From Escherichia coli (lineage in GTDB: Bacteria; Pseudomonadota; Gammaproteobacteria; Enterobacterales; Enterobacteriaceae): 64,000 nucleotides of DNA. Below the pieces are notes generated by a model. That model was given only the letters and a program-made list of their open reading frames with translations, was not told the DNA's origin and did not search any database. The stretch lies in assembly GCF_030013205.1 (NCBI RefSeq), contig NZ_CP122648.1. One strand, 5' to 3'. Positions 34,046-49,683 of this stretch are shown here, in pieces. The stretch's first letter is position 1. Every line of letters begins with the position of its first letter. Position numbers and translations under genes: made by a program.

Positions 34046-35035
34046 TTATGTGGATGAAATGTGGATGCCTCCTTTTAATGGATTAAGTGAAATTGCATCC
34101 TGGAGGAAATCAGGAGCGAGGTGCGCATAGGTCATAGTTTGCTGGATCGTGGCGTGCCCCATAATTCGCTGGAGCGTAAGTATATTTCCTCCATTAATCA
34201 TAAAGTGAGCAGCAAAGGTATGGCGTAGAACATGTACAGCCTGTCCTTTTGGTAGGTCTGGCTTAACACTGCGAAGCACCTTGCGATATTCTTCATAATT
34301 GACGTCAAACAAAAGGCCGGATTTCTTTGTTTTGATCTCACTAACAACTTCATCAGAGACAGGAATAATTCGAACTTTTCCGTTTTTAGTTTTGTTAAAC
34401 GTCACGCGATTATTGATGATGTGTTCCGCGCGCAGATTTTTCGCTTCTCCCCATCTCGCCCCAGTACTGAGACAAAGTAGCGTAATCCGCCGAGCATCAC
34501 CGCTTACTGCATCCAGCAATTTGGCGATTTCTTCCGTAGTGAGGTACGTCATTTCGGGTGATTTTCGTTTCAAAGAGGGGAGGGCGCGGAGTGGATTTTC
34601 TCCGTGAAATTCTCCGGCATTTGCCAGGAGTGTAAACATTCCTCCGAGATCCGACTCATCACGCCGAACAGTAGACTCTTTTACTCCCAAGGATAAACGG
34701 GAGCTTCGATAAGCTGCCATGAAACGAGCATTAATCTGGCTAACCCTTGGATCATTCATTTCTTTGATGATTTTTTTCAATCTGGTTAGAACGCCGTTAG
34801 CATATGGCTTATTGCGTCCACCCAATTCCCACCATAACGGAAGCAGATCTGAGAGATGACGTTGCTCTGTTGGCTTTTCAAGCCATTCCTTATCGTGCAT
34901 GTGGCTGAGAACATAGCGCTCAAAGGCCACTGCATCTGCCTTTTTCTTAAAAATCCGCTGGATCCGACGTCCACTTCGGCCACGCGGTCTAACATCCACT
35001 TTATACCGTCCACCATCGAGTGCTTTAATTGCCAT
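34046..35035 (-). CDS. int: Phage tyrosine integrase (P2 Int-like)
   Basis: 329 aa from MAIKALDGGRYKVDVRPRG.... The catalytic region has ...TGARWGEA...HVLRHTFAAHF...GHATIQQTMTYAHL (R...HxxR...Y). The ORF-track start at 35068 adds 11 aa. Confidence 0.9.
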   Translation of the reverse strand: MAIKALDGGRYKVDVRPRGRSGRRIQRIFKKKADAVAFERYVLSHMHDKEWLEKPTEQRHLSDLLPLWWELGGRNKPYANGVLTRLKKIIKEMNDPRVSQINARFMAAYRSSRLSLGVKESTVRRDESDLGGMFTLLANAGEFHGENPLRALPSLKRKSPEMTYLTTEEIAKLLDAVSGDARRITLLCLSTGARWGEAKNLRAEHIINNRVTFNKTKNGKVRIIPVSDEVVSEIKTKKSGLLFDVNYEEYRKVLRSVKPDLPKGQAVHVLRHTFAAHFMINGGNILTLQRIMGHATIQQTMTYAHLAPDFLQDAISLNPLKGGIHISST

Positions 35036-35101
35036 TGGCAAGCCCTCCGGTGAAACGAGGAAAGACATTTCCAGTTTGTAAAACGTAAGAATAATAAAGG
35101 G

Positions 35102-35826: not shown

Positions 35827-35844
35827 GATGCAGGGAGTTTTGAT

Positions 35845-36186: not shown

Positions 36187-36196
36187 CAGGTGCTTT

Positions 36197-36475: not shown

Positions 36476-36486
36476 AGGGCGTTGCG

Positions 36487-36729
36487 ATGGGCAAAGAATA
36501 TAAAACTCTCATTAACAAAGCACTTGAGCGTTTTTATTTTCGCTTAAGTGCATCAGGCGCTCATGCTGAACGTGCAGCCCGCGACTCATTGACCAGGGCA
36601 ATTCGGAGTCTGTATGACGTGGCTTTTTACGCTGATGATCTGGATGCACTTAACGAACTTTCCGAGCTGATCTGTGCCGCAGAATGCGGGGAACATATTG
36701 AACCGTATAAGCTGGGGAATATTGCATGA
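36487..36729 (+). CDS. Early-operon hypothetical protein (80 aa)
   Basis: ORF in the early gene string. No family recognised. Confidence 0.55.
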   Translation: MGKEYKTLINKALERFYFRLSASGAHAERAARDSLTRAIRSLYDVAFYADDLDALNELSELICAAECGEHIEPYKLGNIA

Positions 36730-36839
36730 GTATATTTATCTCATGGCTTGTTCTGATTATTTCGGTGGCCTGCGCCATTGGGATTATGCGAATTATTAAT
36801 TCAGTAAAAAAGATTGAACGCTTTTTCACTGGTGAATAA
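36726..36839 (+). CDS. Possible small membrane protein (37 aa, MSIFISWLVLIISVACAIGIMRIINSVKKIERFFTGE)
   Basis: ATGA overlap with the preceding stop. It has a single hydrophobic helix followed by a basic tail. It is below the ORF-track size cut-off. Confidence 0.4.
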   Translation: MSIFISWLVLIISVACAIGIMRIINSVKKIERFFTGE

Positions 36840-36925
36840 CAGCGCAAATAAAACCACAGGTTAAATAAGAAAATGTAAAAACAATCCGCATTCGCGGAGG
36901 TATTCGCACACGCCAAGGAGGCGCA

Positions 36926-37129
36926 ATGGCAATTAAGCATTTTCCCGTCGTTCGTTTCACTTCCAGAGGACGTGAATACGAGGTCGACGAACGCCTGATT
37001 ACCACAATCGACAAACACCGTTCAGAACAGGATGCACATCACATCTATCTCACTGACGGCACTTACTTCTGCGCCACGAATGTGGTGCGGGTGAACCTTA
37101 TCCGACAGGTACAGGAGTCACGCAGATGA
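36926..37129 (+). CDS. Early-operon hypothetical protein (67 aa)
   Basis: Strong RBS aaggagg 6 nt upstream of the ATG. Confidence 0.6.
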   Translation: MAIKHFPVVRFTSRGREYEVDERLITTIDKHRSEQDAHHIYLTDGTYFCATNVVRVNLIRQVQESRR

Positions 37130-37371
37130 CCATTCTGGACTACATCGCCGCCAATCCGGGTTGTAGCGGTGGAGAAATCGCCGCAGCACTGAATACCCCA
37201 ACCACAGCCATTAATGCGGAGTTACGCCGACTCTGGCGCAGCGGTTCAGTCATAAGAAAAGAGCGCAAAACAGGCGGTCGCTTTTCTTACCAGATAAACC
37301 CGATGCCGTTCGGGTGCGGCAATCCACTTACCAACATGTTTAACCAGCTACTGAAGGAAGCCAGAGCATGA
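37126..37371 (+). CDS. Small winged-helix-like DNA-binding protein (81 aa)
   Basis: MTILDYIAANPGCSGGEIAAALNTPTTAINAELRRLWRSGSVIRKE... shows a MarR/wHTH-like pattern. ATGA-type overlaps occur on both sides. Confidence 0.55.
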   Translation: MTILDYIAANPGCSGGEIAAALNTPTTAINAELRRLWRSGSVIRKERKTGGRFSYQINPMPFGCGNPLTNMFNQLLKEARA

Positions 37372-37667
37372 GCGCCATCAACCACCAGGAATTACGCGAA
37401 CTGGCGACTGACCTGCAACGAATGGCAACGCCTCAAAAATTACTGGCGTTTCGCGCAATGCTCTCGCCGTCTGCTGTGCTGGCGCTGCTGGATGAGCTGG
37501 AGCACGCCAGAACCACACCTCTCGCCATTCGCCTGACGCTCCATCATGAAATCGCTGATTTCTGCGCGACATTGGAGGCGCCAGGCGAACCGGAAACGCC
37601 GGAAGCAATACAGCAAGAGCTGCTGCAACGCATTGACAAGGTTTTTGATTTTTTTCTGAACCACTAA
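37368..37667 (+). CDS. Early-operon hypothetical protein (99 aa)
   Basis: ORF overlapping the previous stop. No family recognised. Confidence 0.55.
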   Translation: MSAINHQELRELATDLQRMATPQKLLAFRAMLSPSAVLALLDELEHARTTPLAIRLTLHHEIADFCATLEAPGEPETPEAIQQELLQRIDKVFDFFLNH

Positions 37668-37789
37668 GAAACCAGAACATGCACACACAAAAAAACCGCT
37701 TGCCATGCCGTAATCAGTCAGGTTACATTTCCGCTGCACCTCATAAAACGGGTGCCGGGATTCTCAACCCGATACAGAGCAAAGCGCAT

Positions 37790-37810
37790 AACCGCGCCAG
37801 CGGTTTTTTT
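37790..37810 (+). terminator. Intrinsic-terminator-like hairpin inside the early operon
   Basis: aaccgc-gcca-gcggtt followed by seven T. The same T-run and agcgg can alternatively pair with aaaaaaaccgct at 37689-37700. Confidence 0.55.
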
Positions 37811-37989
37811 GTGCGTACTGTATTGCCACGTCTTTTTCGCGTCAGAATTATGGCGGGGCGTACGGGGCCGACTTCGGTCGGGCCGGATTCTTTGCTCTCC
37901 GGTGTTGAGAACCCTGTACGTCTCGCCACCCCGAGATTCTCAACTCTGGATGGTGAGTTATTTCTATCACCGAGCAAAGAGGCCACACC

Positions 37990-38220
37990 ATGGCAAACCG
38001 CAAACAGCACCGCGCATACGCTGCGCGTCGTCACATCCAGACTGAAATCAACCGCAGACTTTCCCGCGCATTCCGCGTCGCTAAAATCATGCACATCAAT
38101 ATGCTGCATGAGCGTAGCTGCGAACTTTCAAACCTCTATTCATCCGCTGTTTTCAGCTATCTGGCGGATGATCTGCGCGAGCTTCAGCAGCTCTTCCAGC
38201 AGCAAAACAAACCCCATTAA
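37990..38220 (+). CDS. Early-operon hypothetical basic protein (76 aa)
   Basis: RBS agagg 7 nt upstream. MANRKQHRAYAARRHIQTEINRRLSRAF.... It is more protein-like than the overlapping 205-aa ORF. Confidence 0.55.
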   Translation: MANRKQHRAYAARRHIQTEINRRLSRAFRVAKIMHINMLHERSCELSNLYSSAVFSYLADDLRELQQLFQQQNKPH

Positions 38221-38292
38221 TTCCTGTTCCGGGCCTTTCCTGCACCTTGCGGCGGGAGGCCTTCGCACATCTGTAGTAAAGAGAATTGCAGC

Positions 38293-38682
38293 ATGATTGA
38301 CGCTCATGACTTCACAAGATGGGTGCGCACACAGGACACCCGTCTGGCTCCCGTTCTTCAGGGATTATTTGATCTCTACATCCGTGGTCGTGACAACAGA
38401 GCACGCACCACAAAACCGGAGAATGCAGACACCCTTTATTTCACAGTAGACGACTGCTACCGCGTGGACTTCACACCACACGGGCTGGCGTTGCACTGCC
38501 TGACACCACACGGCGAATCACTACTGGCGTATTACGACTCCCCGGCCTCCGTATTTGCGGCAATGCTGGCGCATCGCACTGCTGGCGGGTGTGCCTCGCT
38601 GAGTGAATACACCGCTGAATTTGACCGCCTTTCCGCCATCTTCTCGCAGGAGTGGCAGCGCGTGACGGGATACCAGCCATGA
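38293..38682 (+). CDS. Early-operon hypothetical protein (129 aa)
   Basis: The ORF's stop overlaps the gpA start (ATGA at 38679-38682). Confidence 0.6.
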   Translation: MIDAHDFTRWVRTQDTRLAPVLQGLFDLYIRGRDNRARTTKPENADTLYFTVDDCYRVDFTPHGLALHCLTPHGESLLAYYDSPASVFAAMLAHRTAGGCASLSEYTAEFDRLSAIFSQEWQRVTGYQP

Positions 38683-41504
38683 GTGAGTTTGCATGGAGCT
38701 GGAATGAACCACGACCAGCCATTGATCCGGCCAGATTTACGGAGCGCAGGCAGGAAACTGAAACCGACTTGCAACGCGCCATCCGTTACTACCTTGAGGC
38801 GGACAAAAAGGCCCGGGAAGAACAGGAAGCGAAGGAGGAAGCCTTTTTCGCACAATCCGCCATGGGTAAAAAACTCATGGCATCCCTTGAGGAAGCCGGA
38901 CAGCGTGAAAAGCTGGCACAGAGCATCATCAGTAAGCGCCGGGCAACAGAACAAGACCCAGTAGCCCGTGCCTTTGCCACACTAAAGGCACTACCTGTTT
39001 ATCTGCGTGAACCACTGAGCCGCCACCTCTCTTTCCTGCGCAAAAAACAGGAAGCCGATCGCCAGAAAGGCAAAAAGAGCTGGCAGGCGGAACGCTATGC
39101 ACGCGGAACCCTGCGCAAAATATTCGAACGTCTAGATCGCACTGACGGACGCTGGCTGACACCGGGTTATCGCTCCCTTGCCGGGCGCGAACGCCTGGAC
39201 GATTTGCTTTACCTGCCGCAGCTCAACAAGCACCAGATACAGACGCTGGCCACCATGACCGCGGCGATGTTCAGCAGCACCTTCGAAACACTCTGCGATG
39301 GCTTTGGTGCCAGAGATGGCGAGCTGACCATGGATGTAATGTTGAAGGCTTACCGGATGCTGGCTCGTATCGCATTACGCCTGCACATCATGCCGCCACA
39401 TTACGAAGCCCTGAACAAGAGCGAACCGGATACGGAACTGCTGCCGGGCGCAATCCTTCGCCTGACCTGTGCGGACTGGTGGAAACGCAAACTGTGGCTG
39501 TTACGTTGCGAGTGGAGAGAAGAACAACTCCGCGCCGCCTGTCTGGTTTCCAGAAAAACATCACCCTATCTGAGCCAGGACGCGTTAAGCGAGTTTCGCG
39601 CACAGCGCGAGAAAACACGCGATTTCCTGAAAAGTTTCATGCTGGAAAATGAAGACGGGTTCACGATTGATCTCGAGACGGTGTATTACGCGGGAGTAAG
39701 TAACCCGGTTCACCGTAAGGCAGAAATGATGGCCACCATGAAGGGACTGGAACTTCTGGCCGAAGCCCGTGGCGACAGAGCGGTGTTTCTGACTGTCACC
39801 TGCCCGTCAAAATACCACGCAACAACGGAGAACGGTCATCCGAATCCCAAATGGAACGGGGCCACCATGCGCGACTCCAGCGATTACCTGGTTAACACGT
39901 TTTTTGCGGCGGTCCGCAAGAAACTGAACCGCGACGGCCTGCGCTGGTATGGCATCCGCACGGTGGAGCCTCACCATGACGGCACCGTGCACTGGCATAT
40001 GATGGTCTTTGCCCATCCGGAAGAAATCGACACCATTGTGTCCCACACCCGCGATATTGCCATTCAGGAAGATCGTCACGAGCTGGGCGATGATATTACT
40101 CCGCGCTTTAAGGCGGAGTATGTAGACGGCTCAAAAGGCACGCCAACCAGCTACATCGCCACCTACATCGGAAAGAACCTGGACAGCCGCGCCGTGGATG
40201 GCATCGACCCGAAAACAGGCAAACCACGCGTTGACCACGAAACCGGAAAATCAATGGCCGAGAGCGTGGAGCGCGCCATCGGCTGGGCGCGCCTTCACCG
40301 GGTCCGCCAGTTCCAGTTCTTTGGCATCCCATCCCGTCAGGTGTGGCGTGAACTGCGCCGCCTTGCCAGCCAGATGGCACGCAACCCGGAAGGCCCGCAA
40401 CGGCTGAAGGATGACGCAATGGACGCGGTTCTTGCTGCCGCTGATGCCGGATGTTTTGCCACCTACATTGAGAAACAGGGCGGCGTACTTGTTCCACGCA
40501 AAGACTACCTGATTCGCACCGCCTACGACCTCGCAGATGAGCTGAACGATTACGGCGAACAGAGCGTACAGATTTACGGGATCTGGTCACCACTCATCGG
40601 GGAATCCTCCCGTGTGTGCACGCACCCGGATAACTGGAAGCTGGTAAGACGTAAACCGGAAGCGGAAGACAGCACCCGCGAAAATGGTTTTGACCTTCAG
40701 GGCGGCCCTGCCGCCCCTTGGACTCGTGGCAATAACTGTCCCCGTGTACAGGAAGCAGGCAACAGCGGGACAGAACTGTCGGAAGAGCAACCAACACCGT
40801 GGCCGCAGATCCCTGACGGCGTTGATGTGGATGAATGGATGCGCTCACTGAAACGGCACGAACGCCGGGCGCTGATGCGTTCGCTGCGTGACAAACAGGC
40901 AAAAAACAGCAGTGATGAAATGCAGAGCTGGACACAGAGCCGCAAACAGCAGCGGCCTTTGCCTGATAACCACGAATTACTCGCTAAAGAATGGCGGGAG
41001 TCTGCCGAATCTCTCGGCCTGCATATCGGTGAACAGCAGATGCAGCACCTGTTACGGGGCGGCAGCCTGTACGTTGACGGCAGCATCATTGCACCGCAGG
41101 GATTTGAAATTGTACGCAAACCGGATACCCGCCCGGACAGCCGAATCACGCAGCTCTGGCAGCGCCTGAGCCGTAATCATGGCGTAAGCAGCACGGAGAT
41201 CCGCCATAACCCGGTCGCCAGCTATCTGACACAGCTGGGGGCATCAGACCCTGAAGCCGCCGCACGCCTGGCATCCACACTTCAGCAGGACCAGAACACC
41301 ATGAAAACCCCCGTTACCGTGCTTTCTGACATGCTGCGCGCCATCCGTGACGCAGAGCACGCACAGAGAATCAGTGAAACAACTGAACGCGCCCGCCGCA
41401 AAGCAGACCTGCTGCGGGGTGGCCTGATCAGTGGAAACAAAAAACAGACAGAAACGGGATTCACAAATCCCGTAAATGAGCAAAAAACGTGCCGCGATGT
41501 ATGA
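38679..41504 (+). CDS. Rolling-circle replication initiator (P2 gpA family, HUH endonuclease) with long C-terminal extension
   Basis: 941 aa. HUH motif GTVHWHMMVF. The paired catalytic tyrosines lie in KGTPTSYIATYIGKNL (YxxxY). It occupies the last position of the early operon, as in P2 and 186. Confidence 0.85.
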   Translation: MSEFAWSWNEPRPAIDPARFTERRQETETDLQRAIRYYLEADKKAREEQEAKEEAFFAQSAMGKKLMASLEEAGQREKLAQSIISKRRATEQDPVARAFATLKALPVYLREPLSRHLSFLRKKQEADRQKGKKSWQAERYARGTLRKIFERLDRTDGRWLTPGYRSLAGRERLDDLLYLPQLNKHQIQTLATMTAAMFSSTFETLCDGFGARDGELTMDVMLKAYRMLARIALRLHIMPPHYEALNKSEPDTELLPGAILRLTCADWWKRKLWLLRCEWREEQLRAACLVSRKTSPYLSQDALSEFRAQREKTRDFLKSFMLENEDGFTIDLETVYYAGVSNPVHRKAEMMATMKGLELLAEARGDRAVFLTVTCPSKYHATTENGHPNPKWNGATMRDSSDYLVNTFFAAVRKKLNRDGLRWYGIRTVEPHHDGTVHWHMMVFAHPEEIDTIVSHTRDIAIQEDRHELGDDITPRFKAEYVDGSKGTPTSYIATYIGKNLDSRAVDGIDPKTGKPRVDHETGKSMAESVERAIGWARLHRVRQFQFFGIPSRQVWRELRRLASQMARNPEGPQRLKDDAMDAVLAAADAGCFATYIEKQGGVLVPRKDYLIRTAYDLADELNDYGEQSVQIYGIWSPLIGESSRVCTHPDNWKLVRRKPEAEDSTRENGFDLQGGPAAPWTRGNNCPRVQEAGNSGTELSEEQPTPWPQIPDGVDVDEWMRSLKRHERRALMRSLRDKQAKNSSDEMQSWTQSRKQQRPLPDNHELLAKEWRESAESLGLHIGEQQMQHLLRGGSLYVDGSIIAPQGFEIVRKPDTRPDSRITQLWQRLSRNHGVSSTEIRHNPVASYLTQLGASDPEAAARLASTLQQDQNTMKTPVTVLSDMLRAIRDAEHAQRISETTERARRKADLLRGGLISGNKKQTETGFTNPVNEQKTCRDV

Positions 41505-41549
41505 AGCGCGCACAAAACAGGCAAAAGCGGGATTCCAGAATCCCGTAAA
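41455..41549 (+). repeat. Two imperfect direct repeats, each with an internal palindrome, immediately upstream of parM
   Basis: cgggattcacaaatcccgtaaa (41455-41476) and cgggattccagaatcccgtaaa (41528-41549). The preceding aaaacag.caNaaNcggg context is also similar, giving units of about 40 bp spaced 73 bp apart. Confidence 0.8.
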
Positions 41550-41580
41550 CGGTTAATTAATCAACATAAGGAAAATCGAC

Positions 41581-42540
41581 ATGAAAATTTGTATCGACGA
41601 CGGCTCCACCAACATCAAGCTGGCATGGACTGAGAACGGCGAACGCCGCAACGCCATCAGCCCGAACAGCTTCAAGTCGGAATGGTCTGCGCCGTTCGGT
41701 GGCTCGCAGCCTGCGAACTACATGCTTGATGGCGTGCGCTATGGTTTTGATCCGGTCAGCGATCGCTTTGTCCAGACGACCGACACGCAATACCAGTACA
41801 GCGATGTGAATGTCATTGCCATTCATCACGCGCTGGTCAAATCAGGCATCACGCCTCAGGAGGTGGATGTGGTTGTCACCCTGCCACTGAGCGAGTATTT
41901 CGACACAAACGCACAGCCAGACATGGCCAACATCAACCGCAAAAAAGCGAACGTTATGCGCCCGGTGGAGTACCAGAACGGCGAAGCATTCACTATCCGT
42001 AACGTGCGGGTTATGCCTGAATCCATTCCGGCTGGTTTTAAGGCACTGGCTGACATGAGTCCGTTTGAATCCCTGCTGATTGTGGATTTGGGCGGAACCA
42101 CGCTGGATGTGGCAAAGGTTCAGGGGCAACTGGCAGGTATCAGCCAGGTGTTTTGCGATCCACACGTAGGCGTTTCTCTGATGGCTGATGCCGTGCTGTC
42201 GGTGATGGCCACTAACGGTATGCGTACCAGTCACCACATCGCCAATACCATTATTGAGCACCGTCACGATGAAGCCTGGCTACGCCAGCACATTCACAAT
42301 GACGCGCATTACAACAGCCTGATGGCGGTTATTCGTGAAAAGGAGGAAACACTGAAACAACGCGTGATCCGCGCGCTGGCGGGTTTTTCGGGTTACGGGC
42401 GGGTGATGGTTGTAGGTGGAGGAGCGGAGATTGTGGCACCCGCTATCCGCGAAGCCTGCGGAGTTAATGCGACTTTCATCGCGGACGGGGTGCCACAGTT
42501 TGCTCTGGTTAATGGGCTGTACGCAATGGACAAGGAGTAA
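41581..42540 (+). CDS. parM: Actin-like plasmid segregation ATPase ParM (StbA)
   Basis: 319 aa, collinear with plasmid R1 ParM as I recall it: MKICIDDGSTNIKL, SPNSFKSEW, YSDVNVIAIHHAL, TLPLSEYFD, NRKKAN, VRVMPESIPAG, SLLIVDLGGTTLD, VVGGGAE, LVNGLY. Confidence 0.9.
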   Translation: MKICIDDGSTNIKLAWTENGERRNAISPNSFKSEWSAPFGGSQPANYMLDGVRYGFDPVSDRFVQTTDTQYQYSDVNVIAIHHALVKSGITPQEVDVVVTLPLSEYFDTNAQPDMANINRKKANVMRPVEYQNGEAFTIRNVRVMPESIPAGFKALADMSPFESLLIVDLGGTTLDVAKVQGQLAGISQVFCDPHVGVSLMADAVLSVMATNGMRTSHHIANTIIEHRHDEAWLRQHIHNDAHYNSLMAVIREKEETLKQRVIRALAGFSGYGRVMVVGGGAEIVAPAIREACGVNATFIADGVPQFALVNGLYAMDKE

Positions 42541-42544
42541 ATCA

Positions 42545-42859
42545 ATGACGACACCAACCAGACGGATAAGTTTCTATCTGAAGCCCGCCGTCGTCAAGAG
42601 CGAACGGGAGGCGTGCAGTTACCTCGACAGCCTGCCAGCCTCCGAACGCAGCCGCGCACAACGCGCGGCTTTTCTGGCCGGACTGGCTCTTATAAAACGC
42701 ATCCCCGCGTTGGCGTATTCGCTGGCAGAATGGTCAGAAGACGAAATAAGGATGCCACCGCTACCAGTACAGCCTGAAAAACCGGCGAAACCAGCAGCAG
42801 ACAGCGCCCCCCATATGCAGCAGGTGAAGAAGAATATTCAGGCGTTTTTTCCGAAGTGA
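42545..42859 (+). CDS. parR: ParR-like centromere-binding adaptor
   Basis: 104 aa from the ATG at 42545 (RBS aaggag). RRISFYLKPAVVKSEREACSYLDSLPASERSRAQRAAFLAGLAL parallels R1 ParR (RRTIAFKLNP...LDSIPQGERSRLNRAALTAGLAL). Confidence 0.8.
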   Translation: MTTPTRRISFYLKPAVVKSEREACSYLDSLPASERSRAQRAAFLAGLALIKRIPALAYSLAEWSEDEIRMPPLPVQPEKPAKPAADSAPHMQQVKKNIQAFFPK

Positions 42860-42873: not shown

Positions 42874-43161
42874 ATGTCCACCATTACCAAAGAATGGTTA
42901 CAACGTAAAATCACAGAGTTTAAATCGTGGCGCGAAGACATCCCGTTCGGTCTTGATGAAGACGATCACAATATGTTAATCGCACTGGAAATCGCACTTG
43001 CATCACTGGAAGCAGAGCCAGTGGCATGGATGCACGCAAATAATCCTATTGGAATACCGGCGATAACAAGAAGTAAAGATGTTGCAGACAGCTGGCGCTC
43101 TAAGGGATGGAATGTATTGCCTCTTTATTCACTGACCCGCTCCATCAATTTATGCCATTAA
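42874..43161 (+). CDS. Hypothetical protein (95 aa)
   Basis: RBS aggag then the ATG at 42874. No family recognised. Confidence 0.5.
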   Translation: MSTITKEWLQRKITEFKSWREDIPFGLDEDDHNMLIALEIALASLEAEPVAWMHANNPIGIPAITRSKDVADSWRSKGWNVLPLYSLTRSINLCH

Positions 43162-43172
43162 TGGAAGTAATC

Positions 43173-43532
43173 ATGATGAAAGATAATTCCGGAAGCCAGC
43201 GTGCATCAGTTGCAGTTATGGTAATGATTAAATTTGTGAAACAGTACACCGGAAAGCCAATCTCGCTCCGGCAATTAAGCAAAGAAACCGTTTCACTGTC
43301 ATATCTGGAGCAAATATTCAGATATTTACGGGAAAGTAGCCTGGTAAAAGCCACACGCGGCCCGGGTGGTGGATATATCCCAACAAAAGAAAATTACAGT
43401 GTTGGTGATATTGTCCGGGCAATGAAATGTTCCGGATTATATACACAGCACGTTATTCTGGCTGCACTGGATAATATTTCTTTAACCAGCCTGCAGGAAG
43501 ACACAAATTATCAGTTGTCTGCCATTGAATAA
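43173..43532 (+). CDS. Rrf2-family transcriptional regulator (no Fe-S Cys triad)
   Basis: 119 aa. The hallmark ...SLSYLEQIFRYLRESSLVKATRGPGGGYIP... is present. There is only one Cys in the C-terminal half. Confidence 0.8.
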   Translation: MMKDNSGSQRASVAVMVMIKFVKQYTGKPISLRQLSKETVSLSYLEQIFRYLRESSLVKATRGPGGGYIPTKENYSVGDIVRAMKCSGLYTQHVILAALDNISLTSLQEDTNYQLSAIE

Positions 43533-43535: not shown

Positions 43536-43580
43536 AACCCGGAACGGGTGCGCAAATTCTTTGTGCGCCCGTTCCGGGTT
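43536..43580. terminator. Long (19-bp stem) hairpin between convergent Rrf2 gene and ogr
   Basis: aacccggaacgggtgcgca-aattctt-tgtgcgcccgttccgggtt. The flanking U-runs are weak, so function as a terminator is inferred from position. Confidence 0.6.
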
Positions 43581-43858: not shown

Positions 43859-43923
43859 TTTCCACCTCCCGGAACAGCGTTTTACTGCCACCGATTTTAC
43901 CCGCTCTTTCCCCATACCGCACA

Positions 43924-44958
43924 TCACTCCGTGGATTCGTTAAATTCAAGAATAAATTCCACCTGCCCCAGCCGTCTGATATCCGGATCGCTGTTGATCC
44001 CCTCCATAATCAGACGGCGCATCGGAATAACCTCATCTCTGTAATATGCCTCGCGGGATTTCAGTGGGTCACCAAGCCCGGCCGTATTTGCGGGAATGAT
44101 GCCGGCAAGTCCGGGTGGAAAACGGTGCGCAACGAGCTGATCCTGGGCACTGATGGTTTTTATATTCAGGAACTCATCTTTTGTGCCTGAATCCCCGATA
44201 GGGATCACCTTAACGCCTTCTTTGTCTCCGCCCGGTATATTGATAAACATGGATTTAAAATTGCCCGCCCCTTTTGACGCCTCTATCTTTTTACGGAATT
44301 CCGCCTCGAGCTCGGGATCCATGTCCGGGTCAGTGGAATACAGGATATAACCAAGATGTGCGCCGTTCTTGTAATACTTGCGGCGAAAGCGGGTGGCATC
44401 CACATTCAGCATGGCGGATTCCATCCCGTGAATATAATCCGGGACACCGTAAACCTGCTGTTGCGGGTCATAAATGGCCACGAACACCACTTCGCCTGGC
44501 GGGTAAACGAGATCTTCCAGTGCTGCCTGCACAATCACCGTGCCACCCTCGTTGTTACGCCGCAGGTACAGAGAAGGTAACGTATGCAGGCGCACCACGC
44601 GACCGAAGCCATTGCGCACTTTAAGCAACCCCATATCCCCGAATATCAGCAGATTGGTTACTGCTGCCGCCATGGCGGCGTGTGTCATACCACCACCACC
44701 CCGAAAACCCTGCATGATCATATTGACGCGCGCACGCAATACCGCGCCGTGATACGGTGCGATATTGGACAACATGGCGAGATCCATGCGCTCAATTGGC
44801 GGCGTGTACCAGCCGTTATAGCCATCCCAGAGCGAGCCGTAATAACAGCCCCATGCAGCGACCGGTTCCGGGTCACCAAATTCAATAAACGTCATTTTGC
44901 TGGCTGTTTTTTTTGCCACGCCATCGTGTAACACGGGGTATTTTTTCTTTTTACTCAT
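43924..44958 (-). CDS. Portal protein (P2 gpQ-like)
   Basis: 344 aa, the same size as P2 Q. It overlaps the terminase gene, and its position and strand match the P2 Q-P arrangement. Confidence 0.85.
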   Translation of the reverse strand: MSKKKKYPVLHDGVAKKTASKMTFIEFGDPEPVAAWGCYYGSLWDGYNGWYTPPIERMDLAMLSNIAPYHGAVLRARVNMIMQGFRGGGGMTHAAMAAAVTNLLIFGDMGLLKVRNGFGRVVRLHTLPSLYLRRNNEGGTVIVQAALEDLVYPPGEVVFVAIYDPQQQVYGVPDYIHGMESAMLNVDATRFRRKYYKNGAHLGYILYSTDPDMDPELEAEFRKKIEASKGAGNFKSMFINIPGGDKEGVKVIPIGDSGTKDEFLNIKTISAQDQLVAHRFPPGLAGIIPANTAGLGDPLKSREAYYRDEVIPMRRLIMEGINSDPDIRRLGQVEFILEFNESTE

Positions 44959-46738
44959 CTGACAGGATCCATGTTGATTTGCGCTTGTGCTTATAGTTCA
45001 GGGGTTCATTACTTGCGGCATGAGCTATGGCAAAGAAGATGTCAGCGTGCCCGGTTTCTTCGCTACGTTCGGCGGTGAAAGTGACTTTATTGCCGCTGTT
45101 GGTGGATTCCTGACGAATGGCCAGGAACGATGCCGGAATATCCGTGGCTTCTTCATCCCACTCAATACGGTTGGCGTAAATCAGATCCAGCATCTTCATC
45201 ACCAGGCGGTTTTTGGATTCCACGCTGTAATGAATGGCCACTGTTTCACGGCGGGCAAATCCCTGAACCAGCTCAAAGACACCGTAGCCAAGACCGGTGA
45301 CGTCAATGCCGATAAATGTCATGTTATAGCGCGCCTTAATGCTGCGGATACGCTCTGCCATAAACTGGAATGACATGCTGCGCCAGTGGTGTTTTTCCAG
45401 CACGCGGAATCGTTCTGCCGCAACCAGCGGCGGTGCCAGCACAACAAATGTGGCGTTATCGCCGGAGCGCGCAGGGTCAAAGCCGCCCCACACTTCACGG
45501 TTACCAAATGGCATGGGCTCTTCCGGGTGAAAATCCTCCCACGTACTGACATCAACACCACAACGCACAAGATCATCGAATTTAAAGACGCTCTCTTTGT
45601 CATCCACAAACACACACATAAACAGCATATTGAACGCTGTTTCGTTGTATCGCTCGCGCAGCTCGTTGATGTCAGCAAGGTTAAAGCCGCCGGCAATGGC
45701 ATCTTCCAGCGTAACCACATAGCGCCACTGACCATCCGGACATTCACGCCCACCATCGCGCAGCTCATCAAAGGACGGAAACTCAACCCCTTTTCGTTTC
45801 GGATCGCCTTTGCGCCATTCATCGCCAGACCAGAACGGGTAACCCTGGTGTGTTTTGGATGACGGCGTGGAGAAATAGGTAATGCGCCAGTGTTTATGGG
45901 TGGCCATCCCTGATGCCACTTCATTGAGACGGCGAAAACCGGGGATCCACAGGTATTCATCAATATACAGGTGGCCGCTGTTTGACTGCGCTGTGTTACT
46001 GTTGGTCGCCAGAAAATACAGTTCAGCCAGATTACTTAACTTAACCGGATTGCCTTTAATGGGAATGCCAAACTCTGTTTGTGCAATTTTTACAATATAA
46101 GTACGGAACACTTCGGCCTGACGTTTTGATGCCGATAAAAATATCTGTGTGTCGCCGGTTAATACTGCATCTTCAAATGCCTCAAACGCGAAGTAATACG
46201 TCGCCCCAATCTGGCGGGATTTAAGCAGGTTGCGTACACGGCGGAATTTGTTTTCACGCAGATGCAACTGATAAGCAAACAACTTTTTCGTAAACGGCTC
46301 AAAACTTTCAGCAGTCAGTCCGGAAACGTCATTAGTTTTGCGGGGACGCTCTTTCTTACCTGCACCTTTTTCTCCGCGTTCTTCTTTTCCATAACGGCCA
46401 GGCTGGGGGATGTCCACTCCCATTCGCGCAATCTCAGCCATTCGTTCTGTATGCTTGTTTCTGACCGACATCAGTTTGACGTGATGACCAATCAGGCGAT
46501 CAAGCTCATCGTGTTCTTCCTGGGTCTTATGGTCACGTTCCGCCAGTACAGCGAGACGCCGGGCGATAACATCCTCCACGCCTTCCGTATTGAGCTGCGT
46601 GTACCACTCAAACTTTGTCGCCCAGTAATAAACAATTCGCGGACTGTTCAGTCCGAGTTTCTTTTGTATTTCTTTTGGTGTGTGCCTTTTCAGATAGAGT
46701 GATTTTGCTGCGGCAATCACCTCATCAGAATACGCCAT
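44951..46738 (-). CDS. Terminase large (ATPase) subunit (P2 gpP-like)
   Basis: 595 aa, divergent from the scaffold/capsid genes as in P2. It has a Walker-like segment (LKSRQIGATYYFA) and a C-terminal nuclease region. Confidence 0.85.
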   Translation of the reverse strand: MAYSDEVIAAAKSLYLKRHTPKEIQKKLGLNSPRIVYYWATKFEWYTQLNTEGVEDVIARRLAVLAERDHKTQEEHDELDRLIGHHVKLMSVRNKHTERMAEIARMGVDIPQPGRYGKEERGEKGAGKKERPRKTNDVSGLTAESFEPFTKKLFAYQLHLRENKFRRVRNLLKSRQIGATYYFAFEAFEDAVLTGDTQIFLSASKRQAEVFRTYIVKIAQTEFGIPIKGNPVKLSNLAELYFLATNSNTAQSNSGHLYIDEYLWIPGFRRLNEVASGMATHKHWRITYFSTPSSKTHQGYPFWSGDEWRKGDPKRKGVEFPSFDELRDGGRECPDGQWRYVVTLEDAIAGGFNLADINELRERYNETAFNMLFMCVFVDDKESVFKFDDLVRCGVDVSTWEDFHPEEPMPFGNREVWGGFDPARSGDNATFVVLAPPLVAAERFRVLEKHHWRSMSFQFMAERIRSIKARYNMTFIGIDVTGLGYGVFELVQGFARRETVAIHYSVESKNRLVMKMLDLIYANRIEWDEEATDIPASFLAIRQESTNSGNKVTFTAERSEETGHADIFFAIAHAASNEPLNYKHKRKSTWILSDE

Positions 46739-46812
46739 AAATAAACCTCACCTGCTGATGCAATTTTAATTTATGCATTTTCAGCAAAGGCTTTTTTAAA
46801 AACGAATATCGC

Positions 46813-46859
46813 TTTTCGGTATTTTTCGGATATATGCGCATATCCGAAAGTACCGGAAA
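46813..46859. repeat. 47-bp imperfect palindrome in the divergent late-promoter region
   Basis: ttttcggta-ttt-ttcggatat-atgcgc-atatccgaa-a-gtaccggaaa. The inner 9-bp arms are perfect. Confidence 0.75.
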
Positions 46860-46932
46860 TTAATCAGATGACGACGTTTTCATTTCTCCGTTAAATAACG
46901 CCAGTTTAATTTTTATCAGCGGATTAATTCAG

Positions 46933-47829
46933 ATGACGAAGCAGAAAACAGACTGGGTTGTGGTTGCCACATCAGGCCCCACCATCGACGGTCGGGAAAT
47001 TGATCCGAAGTGGCTGACGGATGCCGCCGAGGTTTACAACCCGGACGAGCGAGCCGCCATGCTCTGGCCATATCACGCCGATTCCGGATGGCGTGCCTTC
47101 ACCAATAACTACGGCATTGTTGATGCCCTGAAAGTCGAAAAATTTGGTGAAAAGGTGCAGCTTAAAGCACGCCTGATCCCAAATCGCTTCCTGATTGAAG
47201 CCAATAAGGCCGGGCAGAAACTTTTTACCTCCATTGAAGTGCGGGAAAACTATCTGGGCACGGGCAAATTCTTTGTGTCCGGTATCGCCGTGACGGATAC
47301 CCCAGCCAGCATTAACACTACACGCCTGCAGTTTTCCATGGGGGAAGCCATCCATATGGGCAACGCAGAGGCGCTGAATTTTACGCTGCAGCCTGATGAT
47401 GAGCAGGCCAAGCGCAACTTCTTCTCCCGCTTCTTCTCATCTGACAATCACCAACAGGGAATTTACCAAGCCATGAACGAAGAACAGTTCAGCCAGTTAA
47501 TGGGTGCCATTAATAAAACCAGTGAACGCCTGGACGAGCTGGAAAAAAACGTCGCGCAGTTCAGCGCGAAGGATGCCCCGAAAGATACCGGTGATAACAA
47601 GCCGGAAGGCAGCACCGGCGATCAGGGGCAGGACAACGCAGAACAGAACAACAAGGACGACAAAACCTTCACGCTGACCACCGAGCAGGGCGAAAAGCTG
47701 TTCTCCACAGTGAACGCCATCGCGGAGAAGGTTACCAGTATGGAAACCGCATTTGCTGAACTCAGCAAGGACGCCACGAAGCTGCCGGGCAACAATCCGG
47801 CCGGTGGCGAAACTTTTAACCTGGTGTAA
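46933..47829 (+). CDS. Capsid scaffolding protein/protease (P2 gpO-like)
   Basis: 298 aa. ...GPTIDGREI...LIEANKAGQKLFTSIEV...GIAVTDTPAS parallels P2 O (...CDGRVI...LIAMNKAAQKVYTSMEI...GLAVTDDPAS). Confidence 0.85.
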   Translation: MTKQKTDWVVVATSGPTIDGREIDPKWLTDAAEVYNPDERAAMLWPYHADSGWRAFTNNYGIVDALKVEKFGEKVQLKARLIPNRFLIEANKAGQKLFTSIEVRENYLGTGKFFVSGIAVTDTPASINTTRLQFSMGEAIHMGNAEALNFTLQPDDEQAKRNFFSRFFSSDNHQQGIYQAMNEEQFSQLMGAINKTSERLDELEKNVAQFSAKDAPKDTGDNKPEGSTGDQGQDNAEQNNKDDKTFTLTTEQGEKLFSTVNAIAEKVTSMETAFAELSKDATKLPGNNPAGGETFNLV

Positions 47830-47843
47830 CCGGAGAGAACACA

Positions 47844-48857
47844 ATGAACATGACACCAGAAGCACAAAAGCTGGTTAATCAGTACATCAGCGAACTGCAA
47901 AAAACATTCAGCGACTGCGGAAAATCAAGCGATCGTTTCTTTTCGCTGACCGAACCACGCAGTATTGCTCTGCGTAAAGCCCTGCTGGAAAGCACGGAGT
48001 TTCTGAGTTTCATCACCTGCATGGACGTTCCGCACCCGCAGGGGCAGGTCGTCACCGTGGGCGAATCCACGCTGCGCACCGGTCGCGTGAAAAGCGGTCG
48101 TTTCGCTAAAGGTTCGGGCATCAAAGGCAACGAATTTAAACTCGTTGAAACTGATTCCTGCTGCGTGATCACCTGGGAACAACTCGCCATCTGGGCGAAT
48201 GCCGGTAGCCCGCAGGAATTTTTCAACCTGATGAACTCCGCCGCCGTCACCAACTTTGCGCTGGATATGCTGCGCATTGGCTTTAACGGTAAAACAGCAG
48301 CGGAAAACTCTGACCCGGAAAGTCACCCGAACGGCGAAGACGTCAACATCGGCTGGCATGAAATCGCCAAAAAGTGGGGAGAACAGCCCGGCAATACCTC
48401 CCGTATTCTGACGGACGCCGTTACCCTGGGCGAAGGCGGTGATTATGTCAGCCTTGATGCCATGGCCTCAGACCTGATCCGCACTTATATCCCGGCGCAA
48501 TATCACAACGATCCTCGCCTTACTGTACTGGTTGGCGCAGACCTTGTGGCTGCTGAAGAACTACGCCTCTACAACAAAGAGGACAAGCCCACCGAAAAAG
48601 TGGCCGCACAGTTGCTGACGAAGAACATCGCAGGCCGCAAGGCCATCATTCCGCCGTTTATGCCGGGTAAGCGTATGGTGGTGACCATGCTGCCAAACCT
48701 GCAGATCCTGACGCTGAAGGGTTCCCGCCGTCGTAAAGCGGAAGATGTGGGCGATCGCAAACAGTTCGAAAACTCATACTGGCGTTACGAGGGGTACGCC
48801 CTGGGCGATCCGGATTTATATGCTGCCGTGGATGAGTCTGCGGTCACCATCGCCTGA
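47844..48857 (+). CDS. Major capsid protein (P2 gpN-like)
   Basis: 337 aa. ...LDMLRIGFNGKTAAENSDPESHPNGEDVNIGWHE...GGDYVSLDAMASDLI parallels P2 N (...LDFIMAGFNGVKRAETSD...DVAVGWLQ...GGDYASLDALV). Confidence 0.88.
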   Translation: MNMTPEAQKLVNQYISELQKTFSDCGKSSDRFFSLTEPRSIALRKALLESTEFLSFITCMDVPHPQGQVVTVGESTLRTGRVKSGRFAKGSGIKGNEFKLVETDSCCVITWEQLAIWANAGSPQEFFNLMNSAAVTNFALDMLRIGFNGKTAAENSDPESHPNGEDVNIGWHEIAKKWGEQPGNTSRILTDAVTLGEGGDYVSLDAMASDLIRTYIPAQYHNDPRLTVLVGADLVAAEELRLYNKEDKPTEKVAAQLLTKNIAGRKAIIPPFMPGKRMVVTMLPNLQILTLKGSRRRKAEDVGDRKQFENSYWRYEGYALGDPDLYAAVDESAVTIA

Positions 48858-48874
48858 TAAACGGAGCGCACGGT

Positions 48875-49585: not shown

Positions 49586-49683
49586 ACGACTCCCAACAAC
49601 CGGGCGGGCGCGGTGGAGGTGTGCCGGCAAAAGCCATCAGCACACTGCGGAAACCGGTCAGCCCGCCTTTCCCCGGAGTGAGC

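What the first reader, a model, noticed from the sequence alone, without database searches (positions are those of the whole stretch)
41581..42859. Complete R1-type ParM/ParR (type II, actin-like) partition cassette inside an integrated P2/HP1-like prophage
Seen:
- A 319-aa protein is collinear with plasmid R1 ParM across all actin-fold ATPase motifs (IDDGSTNIKL, DLGGTTLD, VVGGGAE, VMPESIPAG).
- It is followed, with a strong RBS, by a 104-aa ParR-like ribbon-helix-helix protein (LDSLPASERSRAQRAAFLAGLAL).
- The pair occupies the accessory slot between the replication initiator gpA and ogr/portal. This is the position of tin/old-type cargo in P2 (established knowledge).
- The same element has an integrase and is integrated here.

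Inference: the phage may be able to persist as a low-copy episome, with a phage-plasmid lifestyle or a carrier state after excision. Alternatively the cassette has been co-opted, for example for positioning replicating genomes or for incompatibility/exclusion against ParMR plasmids. I am not aware of ParMR being described as part of P2-like phages.
Basis: partly seen in the sequence, partly recalled or inferred. Interest (0 to 1): 0.6.

Follow-up and report, generated by a model that had tools for sequence, protein, structure and literature searches.

The report
ParM/ParR partition genes in P88-like prophage
A real plasmid-type (actin-like ParM plus ParR) DNA-segregation gene pair sits in an integrated P2-family prophage of E. 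coli, but it is a long-conserved, already annotated part of the P88-like phage lineage found in about a quarter of complete E. coli genomes, and what it does for an integrating phage has never been tested.

Summary
parM (41581-42540, 319 aa) and parR (42545-42859, 104 aa) are intact and match the ParM and ParR Pfam families strongly. They lie between the replication initiator gpA and ogr/portal of a prophage integrated beside pheA.

It is not new. The cassette is 94-100% identical to the annotated ParM/ParR genes of Escherichia phage P88 and other Xuanwuvirus records. It occurs in 1303 of 5426 complete E. coli genomes. Pfeifer et al. [quoted passage not shown]

It is not recently captured plasmid DNA:
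- Every plasmid ParM is at most about 52% identical.
- parM dN/dS is 0.03.
- The gpA-parM-parR order recurs in Plesiomonas, Hafnia, Serratia and Enterobacter P2-like prophages.

What I add:
- A candidate minimal centromere/operator of two GGG-N10-CCC palindromes 73 bp apart, conserved in three lineages. It is unlike R1 parC.
- No detectable promoter or terminator between gpA and parM.
- A mosaic, linker-variable ParR.

The phage-plasmid reading is weakly supported: 1440 chromosomal places against 2 on plasmids, and one 34.5-kb circular record. Most likely the system acts on the extrachromosomal phage circle after infection or excision. This is inferred.

The parts
38682..41504 (+). gpA-type replication initiator (rolling-circle endonuclease), the last large gene of the early operon. 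Its 3' end contains palindrome 1.
   Evidence: Pfam Phage_GPA E 3.9e-130. Annotated 'replication endonuclease' in the 100%-identical K_EC180 record. Always adjacent to parM in E. coli hits.
41438..41476 (+). Copy 1 of a 39-nt direct repeat. It contains palindrome 1, CGGGATTCACAAATCCCG (41455-41472), at -125 from the parM ATG and inside the gpA coding end. Candidate ParR binding site (parC-like).
   Evidence: Repeat D1. The pattern is found only twice in 64 kb, expected 0.02. GGG-N10-CCC lies at equivalent positions in the Plesiomonas and Hafnia cassettes (alignment A2).
41511..41549 (+). Copy 2 of the 39-nt repeat, with palindrome 2, CGGGATTCCAGAATCCCG (41528-41545), at -52 from the parM ATG in the 76-bp gpA-parM spacer. 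It lies 73 bp (about 7 helical turns) from copy 1. Candidate ParR site/operator.
41556..41561 (+). ATTAAT box about 20 nt upstream of the parM start codon, conserved in divergent lineages. Possibly a weak -10 element. Function unknown.
   Evidence: Invariant block in alignment A2. It does not meet the sigma-70 consensus scan.
41581..42540 (+). parM: actin-fold ATPase of a type II partition system, 319 aa.
   Evidence: Pfam StbA_N and ParM C-terminal domain. 46.7% identical to R1 ParM. dN/dS 0.034 against P88. 99.4% amino-acid identity to P88 ParM.
42545..42859 (+). parR: centromere-binding adaptor, 104 aa. It has an N-terminal strand TRRISFYLKP plus helices, a variable Pro-rich linker (about residues 66-92), and a conserved C-terminal tail N-I-x-A-F-F-P. 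A recombination breakpoint to the P88-type allele lies at about 42600.
   Evidence: Pfam PF10784 E 7e-24. 2jd3 E 0.01. Alignments A1 and A3. Breakpoint. AF2 model.
42874..43532 (+). Variable cargo downstream of parR: a 95-aa ORF (42874-43161) and an Rrf2-family regulator (43173-43532). Not part of the partition system.
   Evidence: Pfam Rrf2 E 4e-13. K_EC180 annotation. Other cassettes carry different cargo here, such as YafO, HicAB and KAP NTPase.
34046..35068 (-). Prophage tyrosine integrase at the left end, next to the Phe leader/pheA. It shows that the element is integrated.
   Evidence: Pfam Int_N and Phage_integrase. Rfam Phe_leader at 33754-33879.

Best explanation
This is a working type II (ParM/ParR) DNA-segregation module. 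It is a fixed component of the early/replication block of P88-like (Xuanwuvirus-type) P2-family temperate phages. Here it sits in a hybrid prophage integrated beside pheA in a swine-type E. coli.

Proposed mechanism; every step below is inferred, and none was shown here or in any paper I found:
1. parM and parR are transcribed as the distal end of the early operon that also makes gpA. They are therefore produced when the phage genome is extrachromosomal and derepressed, that is, after infection or after excision.
2. ParR dimers bind the two GGGATT-N4-AATCCC palindromes that straddle the gpA stop codon.
3. ParM-ATP filaments capture the ParR-DNA complexes through the conserved ParR C-terminal tail. 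They push or position sister phage circles apart.
4. This keeps the non-integrated circular genome distributed or inherited until it integrates or is packaged, and may aid replication as AlpA/AlpC do for prophage CGP3. P2-type replication yields monomeric circles, which is established knowledge for P2 recalled from memory.

The module is dispensable for the integrated prophage. That fits the common truncated parM alleles.
For: Identity:
- Pfam and PDB matches.

Selection and age:
- parM dN/dS is 0.034-0.045 at dS 0.09-0.12.
- No plasmid ParM is more than about 52% identical.
- The gpA-parM-parR-(cargo)-ogr/portal order recurs in Plesiomonas (ParM 63%), Hafnia (62%), Serratia (58%) and Enterobacter (54%) prophages.
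- The P88+Hafnia+Plesiomonas ParM clade has 100/100 bootstrap support.

Linkage to the replication block rather than the virion block:
- The window shares only 35835-42704 with P88. Its late genes match no phage record.
- An identical ParM is found with different ParR alleles and different cargo.

Cis sites:
- Two palindromes 72-73 bp apart lie at -125/-52, -131/-59 and -128/-55 in three lineages whose flanks are otherwise poorly conserved.
- They keep their distance to parM even where a 167-aa ORF separates gpA from parM. They therefore belong to the par cassette, not to gpA or ori.

Adaptor logic:
- The ParR strand R6-P14 and tail N97/I98/F102/P103 are invariant across 45 alleles, while the linker varies.
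- The AF2 model gives a helical N-terminal domain, a disordered linker and a C-terminal helix.

Timing:
- There is no consensus promoter and no plus-strand terminator in the 76-bp gpA-parM spacer.

Integrated default state:
- 1440 chromosomal against 2 plasmid places.
- PhiSM integrates (PMC6456863).

Precedent:
- An integrated prophage's actin-like protein plus adaptor are early-induced and needed for efficient replication of the excised circle (PMC4446434).
Against: - There is no expression, binding, filament or stability data for this cassette in any paper I could find.
- Two binding sites are far fewer than in characterised type II centromeres (R1 has ten iterons; recalled from memory). 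The palindromes could be only an operator. On the minus strand they also look like terminators.
- A weak own promoter (the conserved ATTAAT box) cannot be excluded, so expression in lysogens is possible.
- A lytic or transient role would be expected to tolerate loss. Truncated ParM alleles are indeed frequent (P0009, P0017), which also fits 'little benefit'.
- Monophyly of all phage-borne ParMs is weakly supported (32/100).
Confidence: 0.5

Rival explanations
1. Facultative phage-plasmid. The phage can establish stable lysogeny either integrated or as a low-copy circular plasmid, and ParMR provides plasmid-prophage stability. 2021.
For: [quoted passage not shown]
- pZ1323PEC0009-2 is a 34,461-bp circular 'plasmid' record that is a whole P88-like genome. 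It is 99.9-100% identical to a prophage integrated at pdxB in strain Z1323HEC0067.
- The lineage also carries a Hok/Gef toxin gene, another plasmid-style stability trait.
- D6, a true plasmid prophage, uses a related StbA/StbB pair (47.8% identical).
Against: - In 5426 complete E. coli genomes the cassette lies on chromosomes 1440 times and on plasmid records twice.
- The other PLSDB hits are 227 kb to 1.4 Mb replicons or fragments. Of the two inspected, one is an IS26-rearranged piece inside an IncC plasmid and one is a linear Shigella fragment.
- The single circular record is linearised exactly at the att junction. That pattern is expected if an assembler resolved excised circles from a spontaneously inducing culture.
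- The integrase is intact here, and PhiSM lysogens are integrated.
- Replication depends on the gpA rolling-circle initiator in the repressor-controlled early operon. No plasmid-type copy-control replicon was seen. This is an inference.
Confidence: 0.15
2. Interference or exclusion function. Prophage-made ParR (with or without ParM) acts in trans on incoming related phages or on plasmids carrying matching sites. It would silence them or mis-segregate them, as in incompatibility or superinfection exclusion.
For: - The cassette sits at the slot where P2-like phages keep lysogenic-conversion or exclusion cargo (established knowledge for P2 tin/old, from memory).
- About 10% of positive genomes carry 2-3 copies.
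- ParR shows many alleles (more than 60 clusters at 90% identity, against about 4 for ParM).
Against: - ParR variability is concentrated in the disordered linker. The DNA-contact strand and the palindrome arms do not co-vary with the ParR allele. There is thus no sign of specificity diversification.
- The palindrome motif occurs nowhere else in the window.
- Plasmid ParR/ParM are too distant for cross-talk (at most 52% for ParM).
- No promoter for lysogenic expression was found.
Confidence: 0.08
3. Hitch-hiking or decaying passenger. The genes are intact by descent but contribute nothing measurable to the phage. The palindromes are transcription terminators or RNA hairpins unrelated to ParR.
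For: - Frequent C-terminally truncated ParM alleles (P0009 has a frameshift near residue 224; P0017 stops at 188).
- The palindromes score as minus-strand terminator-like sites.
- Only two sites are present.
Against: - Strong purifying selection on parM (dN/dS 0.03).
- Retention of the parM-parR pair and of the two sites across lineages down to 62% ParM identity.
- Invariant functional ends of ParR.
- No minus-strand gene reads into the palindromes. The nearest minus-strand transcription unit ends at a terminator at 43537-43549.
Confidence: 0.1

Closest known systems
Escherichia phage P88 / Citrobacter phage PhiSM and other Xuanwuvirus (Peduoviridae) ParM-ParR genes
   Same: The same cassette in the same place (gpA-parM-parR). 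parM is 97% identical in nucleotides and 99.4% in amino acids. The same two palindromes lie upstream. The genes are already annotated as ParM/partition protein.
   Different: - The window carries a different parR allele (56% amino-acid identity after codon 15).
- The cargo downstream differs.
- The late/tail module is unrelated at DNA level. That module is seen in only 41 of 5426 E. coli genomes.
Plasmid R1 ParMRC (type II partition; PDB 1mwk and others)
   Same: The gene order parM then parR, the actin-fold ATPase with all nucleotide-binding motifs, full-length collinearity, and a ParR with an N-terminal DNA-binding domain and a C-terminal tail.
   Different: - ParM is only 46.7% identical.
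- The upstream region is a 76-bp spacer plus the end of gpA with two palindromes. R1 has an AT-rich promoter region with ten 11-bp iterons (R1 anatomy recalled from memory).
- No consensus promoter was found.
- The host replicon is an integrating phage.
pB171 ParR (StbB, PDB 2jd3) / Pfam PF10784 Plasmid_stab_B
   Same: The ParR N-terminal region aligns (residues 6-61), including the strand and the LAG-AL helix. The Pfam match is strong.
   Different: The direct sequence match is weak (E 0.01). The protein is shorter (104 aa against 130). A fold comparison of the monomer model gave nothing.
Phage D6 StbA/StbB (P1-like circular plasmid prophage)
   Same: A phage-borne ParM/ParR pair, with ParM 47.8% identical. 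The D6 record itself notes similarity to the P88 StbA protein.
   Different: D6 is a genuine plasmid prophage. Its cassette has a roughly 260-bp AT-rich upstream region with several ATTCTCAA-type repeats. It is not next to a gpA gene.
AlpC/AlpA of Corynebacterium glutamicum prophage CGP3
   Same: An integrated prophage encodes an actin-like ATPase and a DNA-binding adaptor whose sites lie upstream of the operon. The genes are early-induced on excision and are needed for efficient replication of the circular phage DNA (PMC4446434; PMC5539076). This is the best functional analogy.
   Different: It is a different actin-like family and a different host phylum. The sequence relationship was not tested here. 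No experiment exists for the P88-type system.

Membership tests
Type II (ParMRC) partition system | Actin-fold ATPase ParM with intact nucleotide-binding motifs | tested here: met
   Pfam StbA_N 2e-82 and ParM C-terminal domain 1.4e-68, both full length. Collinear with R1 ParM, E 7e-93. Motifs read directly.
Type II (ParMRC) partition system | ParR adaptor gene immediately downstream, with an N-terminal ribbon-helix-helix DNA-binding domain | tested here: met
   Sequence level: PF10784 E 7e-24; 2jd3 E 0.01; invariant strand R6-P14. The fold was not verified: AF2 monomer pLDDT is 67 with the strand not formed, and Foldseek gave no hit.
Type II (ParMRC) partition system | ParR C-terminal tail that binds ParM | tested here: inconclusive
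   The tail N-I-x-A-[FL]-F-P is conserved from phage to plasmid ParRs (A1; A3) and is predicted as a C-terminal helix. Binding itself cannot be tested with these tools.
Type II (ParMRC) partition system | Cis-acting centromere parC: an array of repeats upstream of parM overlapping an autoregulated promoter (R1: 2 x 5 iterons of 11 bp) | tested here: inconclusive
   No iteron array is present. Instead there are two 18-bp palindromes 73 bp apart, conserved in position in three lineages. No sigma-70 consensus promoter was found. As an R1-type parC the feature is not met. As a centromere in general it remains open.
Type II (ParMRC) partition system | Stabilises an unstable replicon in cis | not testable with these tools
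   Needs a plasmid-stability assay with window 41430-42859 cloned.
Phage-plasmid (as in Pfeifer et al. 2021) | Phage virion/lysis genes together with plasmid-type partition or replication genes | tested here: met
   Head, terminase and tail genes together with ParM/ParR. P88 was listed on this basis.
Phage-plasmid (as in Pfeifer et al. 2021) | Maintained as an extrachromosomal replicon in lysogens | tested here: not met
   - The element is integrated here (int next to pheA).
- There are 1440 chromosomal against 2 plasmid places in complete E. coli genomes.
- There is one phage-sized circular record, of uncertain meaning.
- This is a distribution test, not a physical one.
Xuanwuvirus / P88-like phages (Peduoviridae) | Genome-wide nucleotide similarity to P88 | tested here: not met
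   Only 35835-42704 (the early region through the parR 5' end) matches P88, at 88-95%. The late region 43900-58000 has no megablast match of more than 2% coverage in 50,697 phage records. The prophage is a hybrid that carries the P88-type early block.
P2-family temperate phage | gpA replication protein, Cox/C switch, ogr/delta, and P2-type portal/terminase/scaffold/capsid genes | tested here: met
   Pfam Phage_GPA, Phage_Cox, HTH repressor, Ogr_Delta, Phage_GPO, Phage_cap_P2 and Phage_term_smal. The tail module differs (DUF2586).

The most novel reading that the evidence does not exclude
The most novel reading not excluded is this. In a widespread family of integrating P2-type phages, a type II actin-like segregation machine works with a minimal two-palindrome centromere. 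It serves the phage's transient extrachromosomal phase (pre-integration inheritance, or positioning of replicating monomer circles for packaging) rather than plasmid lysogeny. That would be the first ParMR system shown to serve an integrative phage of Gram-negative bacteria, and a natural minimal centromere for ParR.
Probability: 0.4. Interest if true: 0.6.

Novelty: already known. Interest (0 to 1): 0.3.

Why it matters
Roughly one in four complete E. coli genomes carries an intact plasmid-style segregation machine inside an integrated prophage. These include O157:H7, O26, ST131 and EPEC reference strains. Nobody has shown what the machine is for.

If it acts on the excised or infecting phage circle, it would extend the AlpAC idea of cytoskeleton-assisted phage DNA handling to enterobacterial P2-type phages. 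It would also help explain how such phages survive the window between circularisation and integration.

If it supports true episomal lysogeny, a very common prophage family would need re-classifying as facultative phage-plasmids.

As a discovery from this window it adds little. The genes are already annotated and the hypothesis is already in print.

Tried and rejected
- Recent plasmid capture flanked by IS scars: rejected. No plasmid ParM is more than about 52% identical apart from six records that hold the phage cassette itself. No IS flanks the cassette in the window. The synteny is conserved in other genera.
- R1-like iteron array upstream of parM: looked for and not found. D6 and an IncF plasmid do have long AT-rich repeat regions there.
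- The palindromes as part of gpA/ori: rejected. In Hafnia they stay at -128/-55 from parM although a 167-aa ORF separates gpA from parM.
- ParR hypervariability as specificity diversification: rejected. The variation sits in the linker. The DNA-contact strand and the site arms are constant across alleles.
- Structure route for ParR:
  - The model built from database homologues had pLDDT 67.
  - Foldseek against the PDB gave no meaningful hit.
- PLSDB 'plasmid' hits as evidence of episomes:
  - The Shigella 26.7-kb record is a linear IS-ridden fragment.
  - The IncC hit is an IS26-rearranged prophage piece.
  - The chromosome record guessed for strain Z1323PEC0009 (accession NZ_CP148286.1) is not in the collections, so an empty attB could not be checked.
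- Contig-length distribution for the exact ParM: not informative about circular forms.
- Literature searches for experiments on ParM in P2-like phages found none. The P88 paper does not mention partition.
- Monophyly of all phage-borne ParMs: only 32/100 bootstrap, so a single acquisition is not established beyond the P88/Hafnia/Plesiomonas clade.
Full report
**1. What is there**

The finding's coordinates run exactly from the start codon of a 319-aa ORF (41581-42540, + strand) to the stop codon of a 104-aa ORF (42545-42859).

The first protein matches both halves of the ParM family:
- Pfam StbA_N, E 2e-82.
- Pfam ParM C-terminal domain, E 1.4e-68.
- It aligns over its full length with the solved R1 ParM (1mwk, E 7e-93), at 46.7% identity.

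The second protein follows an AAGGAG box by 7 nt. It matches the ParR family PF10784 (E 7e-24) and, weakly, pB171 ParR (2jd3, E 0.01).

The surroundings are as follows:
- Upstream lies a gpA-type replication initiator (Phage_GPA, E 4e-130).
- Downstream lie a 95-aa ORF, an Rrf2-family regulator, then ogr/delta, portal and terminase on the other strand.
- The left end of the element has a tyrosine integrase (34046-35068) next to the Phe leader and pheA.

The prophage is therefore integrated.

**2. Where it comes from**

The window is E. coli.
- The cassette is 100% identical to the chromosome of strain K_EC180. That strain has the same pheA-side prophage in a deleted form.
- The late genes are 100% identical to strains ETEC4079 and RM10740.
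- The stretch 35835-42704, from downstream of cox to the first part of parR, is 88-95% identical to Escherichia phage P88 and its relatives (genus Xuanwuvirus, Peduoviridae).
- The late region 43900-58000 has no DNA relative among 50,697 phage records. It occurs in only 41 of 5426 complete E. coli genomes.

The prophage is thus a hybrid. It combines a P88-type early/replication block, including parMR, with a different virion module: P2-type head genes and a DUF2586-type tail.

**3. It is already known**
- All 14 P88-like phage records carry the same gene pair between the replication endonuclease and the portal gene. Most annotated records label one or both genes as partition or ParM genes.
- PGAP labels it 'plasmid segregation protein ParM' and 'plasmid partitioning/stability family protein' in RefSeq genomes.
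- The cassette is present in 1303 of 5426 complete E. coli genomes. In the listed hits it lies beside the replication endonuclease gene. Carriers include O157:H7 EC4115, O26:H11 11368, JJ1886 (ST131) and an O127:H6 strain.
- The phage D6 record cites the 'phage P88 StbA protein'.
- Pfeifer et al. 2021 put P88 among putative phage-plasmids. [quoted passage not shown]

I found no experimental work on the cassette.

**4. It is a conserved phage module, not captured plasmid DNA**
- In tblastn against 72,556 plasmids, six records have ParM at 95% identity or more. The best-scoring 5000 records otherwise hold ParM below 60%, and at most about 52% in the rows listed. The records matching the cassette at DNA level are phage-sized or very large replicons.
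- Among phages, only the P88 group and D6 (47.8%) have a close ParM.
- Between the window and P88, parM has dS 0.12 and dN 0.004, giving dN/dS 0.034.
- In the 5.8-billion-protein set, identities fall from 92-99% (the Escherichia/Salmonella/Citrobacter clade) straight to 63%.
- The hits at 63% (Plesiomonas), 62% (Hafnia), 58% (Serratia) and 54% (Enterobacter) are all P2-like prophages with the order gpA-(0 to 2 ORFs)-parM-parR-cargo-(ogr)-portal-terminase.
- Hits at 50% or less that I inspected are an integrated plasmid and an ICE.
- A neighbour-joining analysis gives 100/100 support for a P88+Hafnia+Plesiomonas clade. Support for uniting all phage-borne ParMs is only 32/100.

**5. The cis region**

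Only 76 bp separate the gpA stop from the parM start. A 39-nt direct repeat occurs twice, 73 bp apart (41438-41476 and 41511-41549).
- Each copy holds an 18-bp palindrome: CGGGATTCACAAATCCCG and CGGGATTCCAGAATCCCG.
- The first copy lies inside the end of gpA.
- The 22-nt pattern occurs only at these two places in 64 kb, against an expectation of 0.02.

The same layout recurs in other lineages. Two GGG-N10-CCC sites 72-73 bp apart lie at -125/-52 in the window and P88, at -131/-59 in Plesiomonas, and at -128/-55 in Hafnia. The surrounding sequence is otherwise poorly conserved (alignment A2).

In Hafnia a 167-aa ORF lies between gpA and parM, yet the sites keep their distance to parM. They therefore belong to the par cassette.

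Serratia and Enterobacter cassettes have a different layout: 14-20-nt inverted arms 26-28 nt apart.

This is unlike the repeat-rich, AT-rich regions upstream of D6 stbA or of an IncF parM. It is also unlike the ten iterons of R1 parC (from memory).

I take the two palindromes as the candidate ParR site(s). Whether they form a centromere or only an operator is open.

On transcription:
- The scan finds no consensus sigma-70 promoter and no plus-strand terminator between gpA and parM.
- A conserved ATTAAT box about 20 nt before the start codon could be a weak -10.
- On the minus strand the palindromes score as terminator-like, but no minus-strand gene reads into them.

**6. ParR anatomy and variation**

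The window's ParR is only 56% identical to P88 ParR, although ParM is 99.4% identical.
- Nucleotide identity to P88 drops from 98% to 67% at about 42600. The first 15 codons are identical. For codons 1-67, dS is 0.71 and dN/dS is 0.32. This marks a recombination breakpoint.
- The exact window ParM is also found with the 103-aa P88-type ParR and different cargo.
- In Escherichia, ParR splits into more than 60 clusters at 90% identity, against about four for ParM.
- The variation sits in a Pro-rich linker (about residues 66-92). The strand R6-P14 and the tail N97, I98, F102 and P103 are invariant.
- The palindrome arms do not change with the ParR allele.
- An AlphaFold model (pLDDT 67) shows helices 20-61, a disordered linker and a C-terminal helix 89-101. 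Foldseek found nothing useful.

This is the architecture expected of a ParR adaptor: DNA-binding head, flexible linker and ParM-binding tail. The comparison with R1/pB171 ParR rests on established knowledge.

**7. Episome or not**

In complete E. coli genomes the cassette lies on chromosomes 1440 times and on plasmid records twice.

Seven records in PLSDB match at DNA level:
- One is phage-sized: pZ1323PEC0009-2, 34,461 bp, circular, a whole P88-like genome with an integrase.
- One is a linear Shigella fragment.
- The other five are replicons of 227 kb to 1.4 Mb. The one I inspected is an IS26-rearranged prophage piece inside an IncC plasmid.

The circular record is 99.9-100% identical to a prophage integrated next to pdxB in strain Z1323HEC0067. 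The two strain names share the prefix Z1323, so they may come from one collection; I did not check this. The record is linearised exactly at the att junction. That fits true circles, but it equally fits an assembler resolving excised DNA from a spontaneously inducing culture.

PhiSM lysogens are integrated. Stable plasmid lysogeny is therefore possible but is not the norm.

Truncated ParM alleles are common: P0009 has a frameshift near residue 224, and P0017 stops at residue 188. The integrated prophage evidently does not need the system.

**8. Most likely function (inferred)**

The evidence bearing on function is:
- The cassette travels with the gpA block.
- It has no evident promoter of its own.
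- It is under purifying selection in the compared intact copies.
- It is dispensable in the integrated state.

I therefore think it is expressed with the early genes and acts on the extrachromosomal circular genome after infection or excision. It would distribute or position sister circles until integration or packaging. This is analogous to AlpA/AlpC of the integrated prophage CGP3. Those genes are early-induced, bind sites upstream of their operon, and are needed for efficient replication of the excised circle (PMC4446434).

My estimates are:
- About 0.5 for this explanation.
- 0.15 for facultative plasmid lysogeny.
- About 0.1 for a passenger of no measurable benefit.
- About 0.08 for exclusion or incompatibility.

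**9. Verdict**

The claim of novelty fails, and the specific phage-plasmid interpretation is already published and only weakly supported by distribution data.

What this analysis adds:
- The two-palindrome cis element, conserved across three lineages.
- The linkage of parMR to the replication block across different virion modules.
- The ParR mosaic and linker variability.
- The chromosomal-to-plasmid count of 1440:2.

Interest is modest (0.3). The open functional question is genuine and easy to test in P88 or PhiSM.

Noticed in passing
window 2878-15885: A genomic island lies next to the tmRNA gene ssrA (15523-15885, minus strand). It holds a tyrosine integrase (14127-15437), a large serine recombinase (12288-13844), two ParB_N/RepB-like ORFs (10509-12298) and a type I restriction-modification system. 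In that system hsdR is split into two overlapping ORFs (5232-6116 and 2878-5301).
   Followed up: no
window 37736-37933 (+): Inside the prophage early region, Rfam finds an isrK Hfq-binding sRNA (37736-37810, 62.8 bits) followed directly by a C4 antisense RNA (37846-37933, 78.5 bits). This is a P1/P7-type antisense immunity element in a P2-family early operon.
   Followed up: no
window 43900-58000: The prophage is a hybrid. Its late genes have no DNA match of more than 2% coverage among 50,697 phage records, whereas its early block is P88-like. The late genes are a P2-type portal, terminase, scaffold and capsid, with a DUF2586 tail protein and a different tape measure. This late module occurs in 41 of 5426 complete E. 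coli genomes, and several of the eight listed hits are swine ETEC strains.
   Followed up: partly
window 42590-42859: There is a sharp recombination breakpoint inside parR: 98% nucleotide identity to P88 before about 42600 and 67% after. The ParR linker is hypervariable across Escherichia, while ParM is nearly invariant. An identical ParM is found paired with different ParR alleles and different cargo.
   Followed up: yes
window 41478-41558 (+): A 26-codon ORF (MSKKRAAMYEARTKQAKAGFQNPVNG) overlaps the gpA stop and palindrome 2. The two DNA repeat copies encode similar peptides (GFTNPVN and GFQNPVN) in different frames. This is probably a by-product of the DNA repeat rather than a gene.
   Followed up: partly
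L001 (NZ_CP148288.1) and L004/L005 (NZ_CP148378.1): A 34,461-bp circular 'plasmid' from a cat E. coli isolate is the same phage (99.9-100% identity) as a prophage integrated at pdxB in a human isolate whose strain name shares the prefix Z1323. The plasmid record begins and ends exactly at the att junction.
   Followed up: partly
proteins P0009, P0017 (database clusters): C-terminally truncated ParM alleles are common in public E. coli data. P0009 has a frameshift near residue 224 (649 member sequences) and P0017 ends at residue 188 (555 members). The cassette is therefore often inactivated in resident prophages.
   Followed up: partly
L011 (NZ_JBQPOM010000071.1, 'Vagococcus sp. WN89Y'): A contig labelled Vagococcus (Firmicutes) carries a 97%-identical ParM with the enterobacterial gpA-parM-parR context. 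This is most likely contamination or mislabelling of the assembly.
   Followed up: no
L003 30742-30882; L002 34928-35068; L001 1291-1431: Three related prophage or phage records (K_EC180, P88 and pZ1323PEC0009-2) carry a Hok/Gef family toxin gene near the att-distal end. This is a second plasmid-style stability trait. In the window's prophage that position lies beyond base 64000.
   Followed up: no
L015 7887-7940; L016 5883-5950: The Serratia and Enterobacter gpA-linked parMR cassettes have a different upstream cis layout from the GGG-N10-CCC pair of the P88/Hafnia/Plesiomonas clade. They have 14-20-nt inverted arms of the form ATAGAAAAAT/ATTTTTCTRT, 26-28 nt apart.
   Followed up: partly
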